A DNA stretch of 64,000 bases from an uncultured virus (IMG/VR IMGVR_UViG_3300009155_005562) (Duplodnaviria > Heunggongvirae > Uroviricota > Caudoviricetes): the IMG/VR virus record IMGVR_UViG_3300009155_005562; one strand, given 5' to 3'. Under the pieces are notes generated by a model. That model searched no databases, was not told the DNA's origin, and saw nothing but the letters and a program-made list of their open reading frames with translations. Of the stretch, positions 21,031-22,967 are shown piece by piece. Every line of letters begins with the position of its first letter. Position 1 is the first letter of the stretch. Position numbers and translations under genes: made by a program.

Positions 21031-21067
21031 ATGATTTATTATATCCTACTCGTGAAAAGATATCAAC

Positions 21068-21090: not shown

Positions 21091-21873
21091 ATGACAAAAT
21101 ACAAATCCATTTTTATTTCTGATGTACATCTTGGAACTAAAGACAGCAGAGCTGATTTAGCTGCCAACTTTTTAAAGTATAATACCTGTGATAATTTATT
21201 TCTAGTGGGTGATATCATCGATGGCTGGAGAATTCAACAAAAAAAATGGCATTGGAAAAAAAGTCATTCCGCCTTTATTAGAAGAATCCTTAAACTAAGC
21301 AGAGATAACACCTCGATTACTTATGTTACTGGGAACCATGATGAGTTCTTAAGACCATATGTCGGTTCCTTCTCACTCGGTAACATTAACATAGTAAACT
21401 CTGCAGAATACAGATCAATAAACGGGGAGAAGTATTTAATAGTTCACGGAGATATGTTCGACGGAATAACTAGATTAGCTCCATGGCTATCATTCCTGGG
21501 CGATAAAGCTTATGATTGTGTTTTATGGCTCAACACTAAATTTAATTGGTGGCGTCATAAGTTAGGATTTGGATATTGGAGTTTATCTAGATTTTTAAAG
21601 CATAAAGTAAAAAAAGCAGTAGATTTTGTATTTAAATTTGAATTAAATGTAACTAGCTATGCTGCTAAAAGAAATTTTGACGGAATAATATGTGGTCATA
21701 TTCATACACCGGAAATTAAAACTATTAACGGTGTTACATATATGAATACCGGTGATTGGGTTGAGAGCTGCTCTGCGCTAGTTGAACACCATGATGGATT
21801 ATGGGAAATAGTTTATTGGACAGAGGCAAAAGATGAAATGGATTCTACTAATAATAGTAGTGCAAATCAATAA
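21091..21873 (+). CDS. Calcineurin-like metallophosphoesterase, UDP-2,3-diacylglucosamine hydrolase (LpxH)-like
   Basis: SDVHLG, GDIIDGW, GNHD, HGDMFD, GHIH, NTGDW. Confidence 0.85.
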   Translation: MTKYKSIFISDVHLGTKDSRADLAANFLKYNTCDNLFLVGDIIDGWRIQQKKWHWKKSHSAFIRRILKLSRDNTSITYVTGNHDEFLRPYVGSFSLGNINIVNSAEYRSINGEKYLIVHGDMFDGITRLAPWLSFLGDKAYDCVLWLNTKFNWWRHKLGFGYWSLSRFLKHKVKKAVDFVFKFELNVTSYAAKRNFDGIICGHIHTPEIKTINGVTYMNTGDWVESCSALVEHHDGLWEIVYWTEAKDEMDSTNNSSANQ

Positions 21874-22006
21874 TCCGGCAGACATACCTGGCAAGGTATT
21901 TTTAGAATTTCAAGATAAAGCATCTTGTATGGCAGCCCTTGACACTATGACTTACTGGATTAAGTTTAATACATTTAAAGTCGTAGGCTCTTGCTACGAA
22001 AAATAA
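21833..22006 (+). CDS. Small hypothetical secreted protein, 57 aa (not in ORF track)
   Basis: MKWILLIIVV...C...C; overlaps the end of the LpxH-like gene. Confidence 0.5.
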   Translation: MKWILLIIVVQINNPADIPGKVFLEFQDKASCMAALDTMTYWIKFNTFKVVGSCYEK

Positions 22007-22007
22007 T

Positions 22008-22446
22008 CGGTTACGCTACTCAGGTTGCAGTTCGCGTTCTAGACCGCTCCTACACTTATACACCCTTTCGTCCCTAGCTTTCGCTTCGCACCCAATACAC
22101 CGAAAGGTATGGGGCGGGTCCTTGACAGTAACGACTACTCTGGGTACGGCCTATAAGAAGGGCTCGCCATTTCGCTGTACGCGCTACTGTTATCGTCTCC
22201 TAAAGACTCATCAGAAGGACTGTTATAGGTGTCAAGCCATTCCTTACCGGGGAACCACTTGACCGGGAGGTTACTCCGACCACGTCTAATAACGCTTCGA
22301 CGATAACGCTTAAAGTATTCGATCTTTAAGAATCGCTAGTCATATGGTGGAACTAGGCACCTGAGAGTTCTGGACACTATTTGGCCAATAGTGCTGTGGC
22401 ATAACACAAACTCACACCTCTCCTAAACCCAAGGAGACACGGGGGT
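22008..22446 (-). ncRNA. Large structured non-coding RNA at the 3' end of the tRNA array
   Basis: No credible ORF, GC-richer than flanks, multiple hairpins, long-range helix CTCAGGT/ACCTGAG (22359-22365 with 22019-22025). Confidence 0.6.
22118..22229 (-). ncRNA. Hammerhead ribozyme-like fold (type I, one extra U in core)
   Basis: GUCCUU-CUGAUGA-GUCU(UUAGG)AGAC-GAUAA-CAGUAGCG...CGUUACUG-UC-AAGGAC; all three stems pair. Confidence 0.7.
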
Positions 22447-22447
22447 T

Positions 22448-22523
22448 TGGTAGGAGGTACCGGGTTCGAACCGATCACATTCACGGTGTAAGCGTGACGC
22501 TCTACCAACTGAGCTAACCTCCT
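22448..22523 (-). tRNA. tRNA-Val(UAC)
   Basis: Cloverleaf with CCA. Confidence 0.95.
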
Positions 22524-22929: not shown

Positions 22930-22967
22930 ATACGTACATTATACTGCTTATTGAATATAAGTCAACT

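What the first reader, a model, noticed from the sequence alone, without database searches (positions are those of the whole stretch)
22008..22446. About 430-nt highly structured non-coding RNA co-transcribed with tRNAs
Seen: an ORF-free region starting right after tRNA-Val CCA, GC-richer than its flanks. Hairpins include TCTCCT/AGGAGA, GCACTATT/AATAGTGT, CTTAAAG/CTTTAAG, GTCAAG/CTTGAC and AGC-GAAA-GCT. A long-range helix CTCAGGT/ACCTGAG encloses ~330 nt including the hammerhead. Established: large ornate RNAs (GOLLD, ROOL) and T4 RNA C/D lie in phage tRNA clusters. Inference: a large phage ncRNA, possibly a new class, carrying a ribozyme domain.
Basis: partly seen in the sequence, partly recalled or inferred. 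Interest (0 to 1): 0.72.

Follow-up and report, generated by a model that had tools for sequence, protein, structure and literature searches.

The report
Two phage RNAs joined by hammerhead
The gene-free stretch behind tRNA-Val in this lake phage is not one giant RNA: it is a folded 220-base RNA of no known family, then a self-cutting hammerhead ribozyme, then a second small RNA that the ribozyme would cut free.

Summary
The stretch is real RNA-like sequence on the minus (tRNA) strand, 22446 to 22007. It has no convincing ORF, its GC is 0.47-0.53 against 0.29-0.39 in the flanks, and it sits inside the tRNA operon of a T4-like freshwater myovirus.

It is not a single ornate RNA. It is a chain of separable parts.
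- **Module A (22446-22227)** is an uncatalogued folded RNA that starts at the CCA end of tRNA-Val. Two hairpins keep their pairing through 9 double-sided changes in a second phage lineage. There it stands alone, without the rest.
- **A type I hammerhead (22220-22118)** has a canonical core in two relatives. The window's copy carries the extra U ("U13a") that Perreault et al. 2011 describe.
- **Module B (22123-22007)** is a roughly 117-nt RNA whose 5' end the ribozyme would create. In one relative a tRNA follows 5 nt after it.

No Rfam family reaches its gathering score (nothing at all for GOLLD, ROOL, tmRNA or RNase P). Similarities to T4 rnaD and to the COG2908 RNA failed my controls. Cleavage and function are untested. 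Earlier notes of this scan (e1-5729152, e1-5704556) reached the same reading on near-identical DNA.

The parts
22938..22965 (-). sigma-70-like promoter (TTGACT, 16 nt, TATAAT; 11 of 12) ahead of tRNA-Met, Asn, Thr, Lys, Pro, Val and the RNA region
   Evidence: This is a consensus match only: 7 such sites in 2.7 kb against 5.1 +/- 2.0 in shuffles. No terminator-like site lies between it and 22007, apart from one hit that falls inside tRNA-Met.
22448..22523 (-). tRNA-Val(UAC), the last tRNA before the region. Module A begins directly after its CCA.
   Evidence: 64.2 bits
22227..22446 (-). Module A: an uncatalogued folded RNA of about 220 nt. Hairpins: P1 22437-22419, P2a 22393-22375 (GGCC loop), P3 22356-22336, P4 22330-22309, P5 22277-22266, P6 22263-22231. 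Conserved blocks: GUGAGU, CCAGAACUCUCAGGUGC (22373-22357), GAGUAAC, UGACACCUAU.
   Evidence: A full-length homologue lies directly after a tRNA CCA in L253 and L265, and a truncated one at the start of the L083 contig (13.3 bits, E 0.01 in 261 kb). Between lineages P6 has 5 of 11 pairs and P2a 4 of 6 pairs changed on both sides with none broken. P3 has 2 of 4. P4 has one A-U to G-C swap in L002/L102 and the X9 contig. No Rfam match on this strand at E <= 10.
22231..22263 (-). P6 of module A: a 6-bp and a 5-bp helix stacked across a small internal loop, with a 7-nt loop, followed by single-stranded ACC(U). It has the dimensions of a tRNA acceptor/T-arm minihelix.
   Evidence: Pair table (7 sequences, 0 broken pairs). 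The tRNA-like reading is my inference. In L083 a real tRNA-Leu...CACCA occupies the place just before the hammerhead.
22118..22220 (-). Type I hammerhead. Stem I GUCCUU 22220-15 / AAGGAC 22123-18. Core CUGAUGA 22214-08. Stem II GUCU/AGAC 22207-22195. Core GA(U)AA 22194-90, with the extra U at 22192. Stem III 22190-82 / 22133-25, carrying a 48-nt extension. Predicted cut after C22124.
   Evidence: Rfam RF00163 over the full model: L083 521-584 scores 27.8 bits (gathering 34), E 3.8e-5, no non-canonical pair; the window scores 16.7 bits, E 0.21. The descriptor gave 19 of 19 hits in copies of this family and 0 in 5 shuffles of 940 kb. The X9 contig lacks the U at 22192 and varies only at N7 and in loop II. 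U13a is described in PMC3088659, section 8.
22007..22123 (-). Module B: a roughly 117-nt RNA downstream of the cut. H1 22116-22087 (apex ACCUUUCGGUGUA). H2 AGC-GAAA-GCU 22085-76. A variable 3' arm with hairpin H3 GCG/CGC 22047-34, whose loop holds the palindrome UCUAGA. Conserved tail UGAGUAGCGUAACCGA 22022-07.
   Evidence: Six distinct versions (window, L002, L102, L085/L106, L083/L104, X9 contig). Compensatory pairs: H1 C-G to U-A in L104; H3 C-G to U-A in L104; H2 A-U to G-C in X9. Similarity ends at AACCGA in all of them. In L083 tRNA-Asn starts 5 nt later.
21091..21873 (+). Neighbour only: an LpxH-like (COG2908-type) metallophosphoesterase gene, convergent with the RNA region. It is absent from this spot in L002, L085 and L083.
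   Evidence: Pfam Metallophos 1.3e-12. NCBIfam LpxH models match over their full length but below cut-off (48.3 against 134 bits). The sister contig G005 has the gene (73% identity) about 13 kb away.

Best explanation
The region is the non-tRNA part of a phage tRNA operon transcript. It encodes two separate small structured RNAs with a self-cleaving ribozyme between them.

Transcription probably starts at the promoter-like site at 22965-22938. It runs through six tRNAs and carries on into the region.

Module A begins at the CCA end of tRNA-Val, so the enzymes that trim the tRNA would also make its 5' end. It ends in a tRNA-acceptor-like minihelix with an ACC tail.

The type I hammerhead that follows cuts after C22124. 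That separates module A plus the ribozyme (ending in a 2',3'-cyclic phosphate) from module B (starting with a 5'-OH at A22123).

Where a tRNA follows module B, as in relative L083, RNase P cleavage at that tRNA would define module B's 3' end. The cassette then has the layout ribozyme - RNA - tRNA.

Shown here:
- the three-part anatomy
- the separability of the parts
- conserved base pairing
- a hammerhead core that varies only where hammerheads are allowed to vary

Inferred:
- that the ribozyme actually cuts
- the role of the tRNA-processing enzymes
- the minihelix reading

What the two released RNAs do is not shown. My working guess is that they are stable phage RNAs of the T4 RNA C / RNA D kind, and that module A's acceptor-arm mimic engages tRNA-end enzymes or tRNA-targeting host factors.
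For: Host: a T4-like myovirus. Pfam finds gp23, gp20, sheath, terminase, gp43, RegA and gp44/62.

Strand: all 14 tRNAs are on the minus strand. Five one-sided substitutions turn pairs into G-U, or back, on the minus strand (columns 73, 113, 137, 220, 269). On the plus strand the same changes would read A-C.

Hammerhead:
- Rfam RF00163 full-length alignments.
- The descriptor hit only this family: 19 of 19 hits in 940,041 bases, and 0 hits in 5 shuffles.
- L083 and the X9 contig have the canonical CGAAAC. The X9 changes fall at N7 (22210), loop II (22202) and the extra U (22192).
- Stem III is rebuilt (CAGC.../...GCUG) in L083, with the fourth pair U-A becoming C-G.
[quoted passage not shown] Their Figure S6 legend covers active core variants (PMC3088659: section 8 read in full, plus passages).

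Separability:
- In L253 and L265, module A lies right after a tRNA's CCA (tRNA-Lys in L253; ARAGORN does not call it in L265) and is followed by a hairpin and then tRNA-Asn or an ORF. There is no module B in those loci.
- L083 has module B between tRNA-Leu and tRNA-Asn, with a truncated module A at the contig start.

Covariation.

RNA libraries: X18 contig 9 (237 nt) covers 22250-22486 and bridges the tRNA-Val/module A junction with 39 and 198 nt on either side. X20 contig 17 (188 nt) covers 22250-22437.
Against: - Self-cleavage was not tested. Both Rfam scores are below the gathering score of 34, and the text I read gives no rate for U13a variants.
- The family is small: six module B versions and two module A lineages. 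Several helices never vary.
- The structure was predicted on the same alignment that I used to count its pairs, so the count leans towards it.
- The X9 version does not keep the 3' arm of module B. Pair 22069-22015 becomes C-C, and 22070-22026 is largely replaced.
- The MFE is no better than shuffles.
- The RNA-library contigs could come from DNA in the libraries. Contigs cannot show ends or strand. Both stop at 22250, next to a polymorphic site (22249), which looks like an assembly break rather than an RNA end.
- In the window no tRNA follows module B closely. Two plus-strand ORFs lie between it and tRNA-Arg, so its 3' end here is undefined.
Confidence: 0.65

Rival explanations
1. One reading: one large (~430 nt) ornate RNA of a new class. 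It is closed by the CUCAGGU/ACCUGAG helix, and the hammerhead is an internal domain.
For: - The two 7-mers are complementary, and the MFE fold uses them.
- In X9 the change C22023 to U keeps the pair as G-U.
- Four contig lineages keep A and B adjacent.
Against: - L253 and L265 carry module A, including the invariant CUCAGGUGC, with no module B.
- L083 carries module B, including CCUGAG, with no module A next to it.
- L085/L106 have G22021 to U, which gives a C-U mismatch in the helix.
- CUCAGGUG has conserved partners inside module A. One is CACC..UGA, close by. The other is ACCU at module A's 3' end, which RNAalifold pairs in all 5 sequences.
- If the hammerhead cuts, it splits the RNA.
Confidence: 0.1
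2. Module B is a cis-regulatory leader related to the COG2908 RNA motif (Rfam RF02939). That motif precedes LpxH-like genes in other phages. The hammerhead would supply the leader's 5' end in place of a promoter.
For: - H1's apex matches the RF02939 consensus. In L083, ACCUUUCGGUGUAG matches over 15 positions. In the window the match covers the full model at 11.6 bits. It is the only match at E <= 10 in the 145.7-kb record G001.
- Loci L164, L167, L171, L174 and L184 carry true RF02939-like RNAs about 150 nt upstream of genes 51-54% identical to the window's 260-aa LpxH-like protein. L209 and L216 are short loci that hold only the first 49 residues, 63-65% identical.
- In those loci a TATAAATA-like box sits just upstream. 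That was read by eye in the output.
- An LpxH-like gene lies next to the RNA in the window.
- A model of those leaders aligns end to end with module B (13-14 bits).
Against: - Control: 11 unrelated loci that merely share the 16-mer score 13.0-15.9 bits with the same model.
- The reciprocal model built from module B does not find the leaders at E <= 10. Its only 2 hits are chance coding loci.
- All 14 control genomes also 'ring' for RF02939 at this level.
- The outer helix and the second hairpin of the motif are missing.
- The window's LpxH-like gene is on the other strand.
- In G005 that gene lies about 13 kb away with no motif in front of it.
- In L083 and L002, tRNAs follow module B.
Confidence: 0.1
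3. The window's hammerhead is a dead relic inactivated by the extra U, and the whole stretch is left uncut. It would then be either a fused A-B RNA or plain spacer between tRNA sub-clusters.
For: - The insertion lies between A13 and A14 of the core.
- The window's Rfam score drops to 16.7 bits.
- Three of the four full-length lineages carry it.
Against: - The three lineages with the extra U differ by 4-5% over the region. Yet all other core bases and all pairs of stems I and II are unchanged. Stem III has a single C-to-U change that keeps the pair as U-G (column 269).
- The same insertion (U13a) is described as structurally tolerable in natural hammerheads.
- Covariation argues against plain spacer.
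Confidence: 0.15

Closest known systems
Type I hammerhead ribozymes of phages and prophages (Rfam RF00163; Perreault et al. 2011, PMC3088659), including the U13a core variant
   Same: - Core CUGAUGA ... GA(U)AA.
- G10.1-C11.1 and A15.1-U16.1 pairs.
- GUC cleavage triplet.
- Open stem I.
- Phage intergenic setting.
- The extra U in GAAA is the described U13a insertion.
   Different: - It sits inside a tRNA operon, between two uncatalogued RNAs.
- Stem III carries a 48-nt extension in the window.
- It scores below Rfam's gathering score.
- Activity is untested.
Phage T4 small stable RNAs rnaD (species 2, 119 nt) and rnaC (species 1, 139 nt)
   Same: - They start right after a tRNA's CCA in the tRNA cluster of a T4-type phage.
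- rnaD ends in ...GCGCACCA, and rnaC has a T-arm-like end.
- Their roles are unknown (PMC3014915, passage).
- A 23-column local similarity to T4 rnaD: score 29 against 18.4 +/- 2.3 for shuffles, with 0 of 300 shuffles reaching it.
   Different: - Profiles of rnaD (3 phages) and rnaC (4 phages) do not hit the region on the right strand.
- The similar T4 hairpin is not conserved in JS10 or DCP80 rnaD, nor in module A of L253.
- T4 has no hammerhead there.
HDV-like theta ribozymes next to phage tRNAs (Kienbeck et al. 2024, PMC10879173)
   Same: A small self-cleaving ribozyme embedded in a phage tRNA array. The authors propose that it takes over part of transcript processing (passages only).
   Different: - A different ribozyme class.
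- Theta ribozymes abut the tRNA 3' end and are proposed to cut the trailer. Here the cut lies 64 nt (L083) or 323 nt (window) past the tRNA and frees a downstream RNA.
- The word 'hammerhead' does not occur in that paper.
COG2908 RNA motif (Rfam RF02939)
   Same: The apical hairpin ACC-UUUC-GGU-GUA(G) with flanking C/G pairs. An LpxH-like gene is nearby in the window.
   Different: - 11.6-14.5 bits against a gathering score of 58.7.
- No outer helix and no second hairpin.
- The matched-background control fails.
- The gene is on the other strand.
GOLLD, ROOL and other large ornate RNAs; tmRNA; RNase P RNA
   Same: Often found near tRNAs in phages (recalled, not tested). A related contig, L030, does carry a permuted tmRNA downstream of regA.
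   Different: - No Rfam match to any of them at the gathering level or at E <= 10.
- ARAGORN finds no tmRNA in the window.
- The parts here are small and modular.

Membership tests
Hammerhead ribozyme, type I (RF00163) | Core strand CUGANGA between stems I and II | tested here: met
   CUGAUGA at 22214-22208. It is identical in all versions, except that U7 becomes C in 1 of 2 X9 contigs, at the free position N7.
Hammerhead ribozyme, type I (RF00163) | Core strand GAAA between stems II and III | tested here: inconclusive
   Canonical in L083 and the X9 contig. The window, L002/L102 and L085/L106 have GAUAA. That equals the U13a insertion described in PMC3088659.
Hammerhead ribozyme, type I (RF00163) | Three helices with G10.1-C11.1 and A15.1-U16.1, an H17 cleavage nucleotide, and open stem I | tested here: met
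   Rfam alignment without non-canonical pairs in L083. Descriptor hits with 6-bp stem I, 4-bp stem II, and a 9-bp (window) or 4+6-bp (L083) stem III, with C17.
Hammerhead ribozyme, type I (RF00163) | Score at or above Rfam's gathering score (34 bits) | tested here: not met
   27.8 bits in L083, 16.7 bits in the window. The long stem III and the extra U cost score.
Hammerhead ribozyme, type I (RF00163) | Site-specific self-cleavage | not testable with these tools
   Needs an in vitro or in vivo assay. The contigs cannot show RNA ends.
T4 rnaC / rnaD small stable RNAs | Sequence or profile homology to T4-type rnaD or rnaC | tested here: not met
   nhmmer with both profiles, all filters off: no hit on the minus strand of the region at E <= 100.
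T4 rnaC / rnaD small stable RNAs | Located in the tRNA cluster, starting at a tRNA's CCA end | tested here: met
COG2908 RNA motif (RF02939) | Gathering score. An outer helix that encloses two hairpins. | tested here: not met
   11.6 bits against 58.7. The second hairpin is absent (1 nt where the model has 15).
COG2908 RNA motif (RF02939) | Lies upstream of a COG2908-type gene on the same strand | tested here: not met
   The window's gene is on the opposite strand. Relatives have tRNAs or another ORF downstream.
GOLLD / ROOL / tmRNA / RNase P RNA | A match to the Rfam covariance model. For tmRNA, also a tRNA-like domain and a tag reading frame. | tested here: not met
   No match at E <= 10. ARAGORN finds no tmRNA. 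A true permuted tmRNA in L030 scores 111 bits with the same tool.

The most novel reading that the evidence does not exclude
This would be a natural 'ribozyme - RNA - tRNA' release cassette. The hammerhead sets the 5' end of a ~117-nt RNA, and RNase P at the next tRNA sets its 3' end.

It is coupled to a second RNA (module A), which the tRNA-trimming enzymes make. Module A ends in an acceptor-arm mimic with an ACC tail.

Both would be stable, trans-acting phage RNAs. Module A might act as a decoy or substrate for enzymes or host defences that act on tRNA 3' ends. That would give the long-unexplained T4 RNA C / RNA D type of gene a tractable, covariation-rich relative.
Probability: 0.2. Interest if true: 0.7.

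Novelty: new variant of a known kind. Interest (0 to 1): 0.5.

Why it matters
Phage tRNA clusters have been known since the 1970s to hold extra small RNAs of unknown role. The T4 review I saw still lists RNA C and D as unexplained.

This region adds two uncatalogued folded RNAs with real compensatory changes. It also shows a hammerhead placed where it would cut one of them out of the tRNA transcript. That is the layout genome engineers use to release guide RNAs (ribozyme or tRNA flanks; search listing).

If the cut is real, phages would use ribozymes as well as host RNases to process non-coding RNA operons. That would extend the theta-ribozyme idea to another ribozyme class and another habitat.

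It is not a new class of giant RNA. The family found so far is small and lives in lake phages. The same reading was already reached elsewhere in this scan.

Tried and rejected
1. Whole-region homologues near regA. Among the 80 regA loci of T4-like viral contigs, 0 of 80 gave an nhmmer hit at E <= 1.
2. The 'phages' collection. blastn in distant mode found no match.
3. Exact-pattern scans.
   - 1 locus, real.
   - 2 loci, both real.
   - 3 loci, all real.
   - 11 loci, of which 4 were real and already known and 7 were coding chance hits.
   - (metagenomes): 10 loci, 4 real and 6 chance.
   - 2 loci, 1 real.
   - 34 loci, 4 real. L243 is unclear.
   - (prokaryote genomes, module A pattern): 0 loci.
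4. T4 rnaD/rnaC homology. Rejected.
5. COG2908 RNA homology of module B. Rejected after the controls.
6. A type III hammerhead reading (17 bits). Replaced by type I.
7. tmRNA. A related contig has one, but the window's region does not.
8. Module A model R3 against 39 loci, including other ~210-nt inter-tRNA gaps (L004, L019, L058). Only L083 1-58 matched. I therefore could not confirm that module A is 'widespread'.
9. A pseudoknot between hammerhead loop II (UUAGG/UCAGG) and CCUGA (22024-20). It holds in 4 of 5 versions, with a U-U mismatch in L085/L106 (read by hand). It stays an idea.
10. RNA-library cover. No contig of X18 or X20 was laid on 21900-22249. Contig gaps prove nothing.
11. The common stop of both RNA contigs at 22250 is most simply an assembly break at the 22249 polymorphism, not an RNA end.
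12. An LpxH-like gene as a fixed partner. Absent next to the RNA in L002, L083 and L085. Found in 2 of 5 records.
Full report
**What and where**

The window is a T4-like myovirus. Pfam finds the major capsid protein gp23, the portal gp20, the tail sheath, the large terminase, a family B DNA polymerase, RegA and the clamp-loader subunits. Sequencing runs that hold the stretch are labelled freshwater or lake metagenomes.

All 14 tRNA genes are on the minus strand. The flagged stretch must therefore be read from 22446 down to 22007, starting directly after the CCA of tRNA-Val (22448-22523).

It holds no convincing ORF. Its GC is 0.465-0.525, against 0.285-0.39 on both sides. A strong sigma-70-like site (22965-22938; 11 of 12) precedes the six tRNAs upstream of it. 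No terminator-like site separates them from the region.

Thermodynamics alone does not mark it out. The MFE z-score is -1.17 on the minus strand and -0.98 on the plus strand.

**Known families**

Rfam 15 gave only the 14 tRNAs at gathering level. At E <= 10, in ever smaller search spaces, it gave nothing for GOLLD, ROOL, tmRNA, RNase P or introns. ARAGORN finds no tmRNA. The same tools do recognise a permuted tmRNA at 111 bits in a related contig.

**Relatives**

The region is rare.
- None of the 80 regA-linked loci of T4-like viral contigs has it.
- The phage collection has no match.
- Exact-pattern scans of IMG/VR and of JGI metagenomes found three further full-length lineages, 95-96% identical to the window: L002, L102 and L085/L086/L106. 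They also found the window's own contig (G001/L099).
- A DNA run holds a fourth, more divergent full-length version. This is X9 contig 25, with 32 substitutions and 9 gaps over 21900-22506.
- One contig (L083/L104) holds only the 3' ~180 nt, wedged between tRNA-Leu(UAG) and tRNA-Asn.

**The hammerhead**

In L083 the shared part opens with a textbook type I hammerhead: GUCCUU-CUGAUGA-GUCU..AGAC-GAAA-CAGC..GCUG-UC, then AAGGAC.
- Rfam RF00163 aligns it over the full model with no non-canonical pair. It scores 27.8 bits (gathering 34), E 3.8e-5.
- The window's copy (22220-22118) has the same stems I and II and the same CUGAUGA. It reads GAUAA instead of GAAA and carries a 48-nt extension in stem III. 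It scores 16.7 bits, E 0.21.
- My own type I descriptor, which allows that U, hit 19 times in 940,041 bases of window plus loci. All 19 hits were copies of this family. It hit nothing in 5 shuffles of the whole set.
- Variation falls where a hammerhead allows it. The X9 version changes only N7 (22210, in 1 of 2 contigs), loop II (22202) and the extra U itself, which it lacks.
- L083 rebuilds stem III with a compensatory fourth pair.
- The extra U is not a novelty. Perreault et al. [quoted passage not shown] Their Figure S6 legend covers active core variants (PMC3088659: section 8 read in full, other passages).
- Three lineages that differ by 4-5% all keep the U. All other core bases and the pairs of stems I and II are untouched in them. 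Stem III has one C-to-U change that leaves a U-G pair.
- The predicted cut is after C22124.

**Module B (22123-22007)**

Similarity among all versions ends at AACCGA (22007).
- H1 (22116-22087) keeps a C-G to U-A swap in L104.
- H3 (GCG/CGC, 22047-34) keeps a C-G to U-A swap in L104.
- H2 (AGC-GAAA-GCU) becomes GGC/GCC in X9 through changes at both 22085 and 22076.
- The arm 22070-22026 is poorly conserved. X9 replaces most of it and breaks one predicted pair.
- The H3 loop is the palindrome UCUAGA. In the X9 version, which I rebuilt from the differences, another palindrome stands there. I leave that as an observation.
- In L083, tRNA-Asn starts 5 nt after AACCGA. Hammerhead cleavage and RNase P would there release a discrete RNA of about 117 nt.
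- In L002 a 49-nt spacer and tRNA-Arg follow.
- In L085 a Shine-Dalgarno sequence and a small ORF follow.
- In the window two plus-strand ORFs follow.

**Module A (22446-22227)**

A covariance model of it (R3) found one match in 261 kb of related loci. That match is the first 58 bases of the L083 contig, cut off by the contig's end (13.3 bits, E 0.01).

A pattern built from the shared blocks then retrieved L253 (a 94.5-kb contig) and L265. These hold a full-length copy of about 217 nt. In both it starts directly after the CCA of a tRNA (tRNA-Lys in L253). It is followed by a hairpin and then tRNA-Asn or an ORF. Neither locus contains the hammerhead or module B.

Between the two lineages:
- The terminal hairpin P6 keeps all 11 pairs, while 5 change on both sides.
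- The GGCC-loop hairpin P2a keeps all 6 pairs, while 4 change on both sides (7 and 6 sequences).
- P3 changes 2 of 4 pairs on both sides, with one A-C mismatch in L002.
- If a random pair is canonical 6 times in 16, nine for nine has a chance of about 1.5e-4. This is my own rough figure.

Within the window's lineage:
- P4 shows an A-U to G-C swap in L002/L102 and X9.
- Five one-sided changes make or remove G-U pairs on the minus strand.
- That structure was predicted on the same alignment, so the count leans towards it.

P6 has the dimensions of a tRNA acceptor/T-arm minihelix and is followed by ACC. In L083 the element just before the hammerhead is a real tRNA ending in CACCA. The tRNA-mimic reading is inference.

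**The long-range helix**

CUCAGGU (22365-59) and ACCUGAG (22025-19) are complementary. Three things speak against the helix.
- The block CCAGAA(A)CUCUCAGGUGC is invariant in L253/L265, which have no module B nearby.
- CCUGAG is conserved in L083, which has no module A nearby.
- L085/L106 carry a disrupting G-to-U change.

Module A offers its own invariant partners. RNAalifold pairs AGGU with ACCU at the module's 3' end in 5 of 5 sequences. I therefore read A and B as independent modules placed end to end.

**Expression**

Two metatranscriptome libraries from two studies each hold a contig that starts in or just after tRNA-Val and runs into module A. X18 covers 22250-22486 and X20 covers 22250-22437, each with one other letter.

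The X18 contig bridges the tRNA/module A junction. This fits read-through. It cannot show strand, ends or a single transcript, and DNA in the libraries is not excluded.

Both contigs stop at 22250, next to the polymorphic 22249. I take that for an assembly break.

**Leads that failed controls**

1. T4 rnaD/rnaC.
   - They occupy the same kind of place, and T4 rnaD shares a 23-column stretch with P6 (0 of 300 shuffles reach the score).
   - That hairpin is not kept in other rnaD genes, nor in L253's P6.
   - rnaD and rnaC profiles do not hit the region.
2. The COG2908 RNA (RF02939).
   - The apex of H1 matches it. True examples of that motif lie about 150 nt upstream of genes 51-54% identical to the window's neighbouring LpxH-like gene in five viral loci, and two more short loci cover only the gene's start.
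   - A model of those leaders scores module B no better (13-14 bits) than it scores 11 unrelated loci that merely share the 16-mer (13.0-15.9 bits).
   - The reverse search fails.
   - The window's gene is on the other strand.
   - A sister contig has that gene about 13 kb away with no motif.
   - The coincidence of names is worth remembering, but membership is not met.

**Literature**

- Hammerheads flanking phage genes are known (PMC3088659).
- HDV-like theta ribozymes next to phage tRNAs are known and are proposed to trim tRNA trailers (PMC10879173, passages).
- I found no paper in the held library that places a hammerhead inside a phage tRNA gene cluster. The library lacks most subscription journals.
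- Notes of this scan list several such cases.
- Two notes on near-identical DNA (e1-5704556, e1-5729152) reach the same anatomy. Their claim that module A is 'widespread' I could confirm only for a second lineage.

**Verdict**

This is a real, modular RNA locus: uncatalogued RNA, then hammerhead (U13a variant), then a second uncatalogued RNA. It is most likely processed out of the tRNA operon transcript. It is not a giant ornate RNA. The function of the released RNAs is unknown. Cleavage is plausible but untested.

Noticed in passing
L030 9092-9429: A related T4-like viral contig (160 kb) carries a permuted (two-piece) tmRNA gene about 3.7 kb downstream of regA. The tag is ANDDSYYGDYALAA. Rfam tmRNA_permuted scores 111 bits.
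   Followed up: partly
L164 1410-1526 (-), also L167, L171, L174, L184, L209, L216: True COG2908-type RNAs (135-148 bits with my model). Each sits just downstream of a TATAAATA-like box and about 150 nt upstream of an LpxH-like gene. The RNA extends about 70 nt beyond the 45-nt Rfam motif: two more hairpins with compensatory changes and an AACCGAAU tail. A hairpin over the GGAG before the start codon follows.
   Followed up: partly
L131 204-297 (-): A shorter, divergent copy of the same leader RNA (55 bits) lies in front of a different gene. Its first residues looked to me like a GMP reductase/IMP dehydrogenase-type protein. That was by eye only and was not tested.
   Followed up: no
window 21091-22006 (+): An LpxH-like metallophosphoesterase gene and an overlapping 57-aa ORF are inserted, in the opposite direction, between module B and tRNA-Arg. 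L002 and L085 lack them at this spot. G005 has the gene (73% identity) about 13 kb away.
   Followed up: partly
window 22440-22419 and 22207-22195: The 9-mer UUUAGGAGA occurs both in hairpin P1 of module A and in stem-loop II of the hammerhead. As a result, P1's 5' strand GUCUCCU is fully complementary to the ribozyme's AGGAGAC. RNAalifold chose that long-range pairing. It would unfold stem II and could switch the ribozyme off.
   Followed up: no
window 22075-22070 and 22123-22118: AGGGAC after hairpin H2 could pair with GUCCUU as well as the true stem I partner AAGGAC does (6 pairs, one of them G-U). This is a possible competing fold. Both are invariant in all versions.
   Followed up: no
L004 7670-7881 and 7956-8181; L019 7784-7998; L058 7792-8012; L083 197-354: Other ORF-free gaps of about 160-225 nt between tRNA genes in related phage loci. 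L004 7956-8181 and L019 7784-7998 share a GGGGUAA(G/A)AAUCCCAAU hairpin near their ends. None matched my module A model.
   Followed up: partly
L265 (reverse strand), just upstream of its module A: The 3' half of a tRNA-Lys-like gene is present (..GGUCGCGAGUUCGAAUCUCGCCACUCGUACCA), but ARAGORN calls no tRNA there. The sequence upstream of it differs from L253. This may be an interrupted tRNA gene.
   Followed up: no
window 21038-21066 (-): A second strong sigma-70-like site (TTGATA, 17 nt, TATAAT; 11 of 12) lies directly ahead of tRNA-Arg. It suggests that the downstream tRNA sub-cluster has its own promoter in this phage.
   Followed up: no
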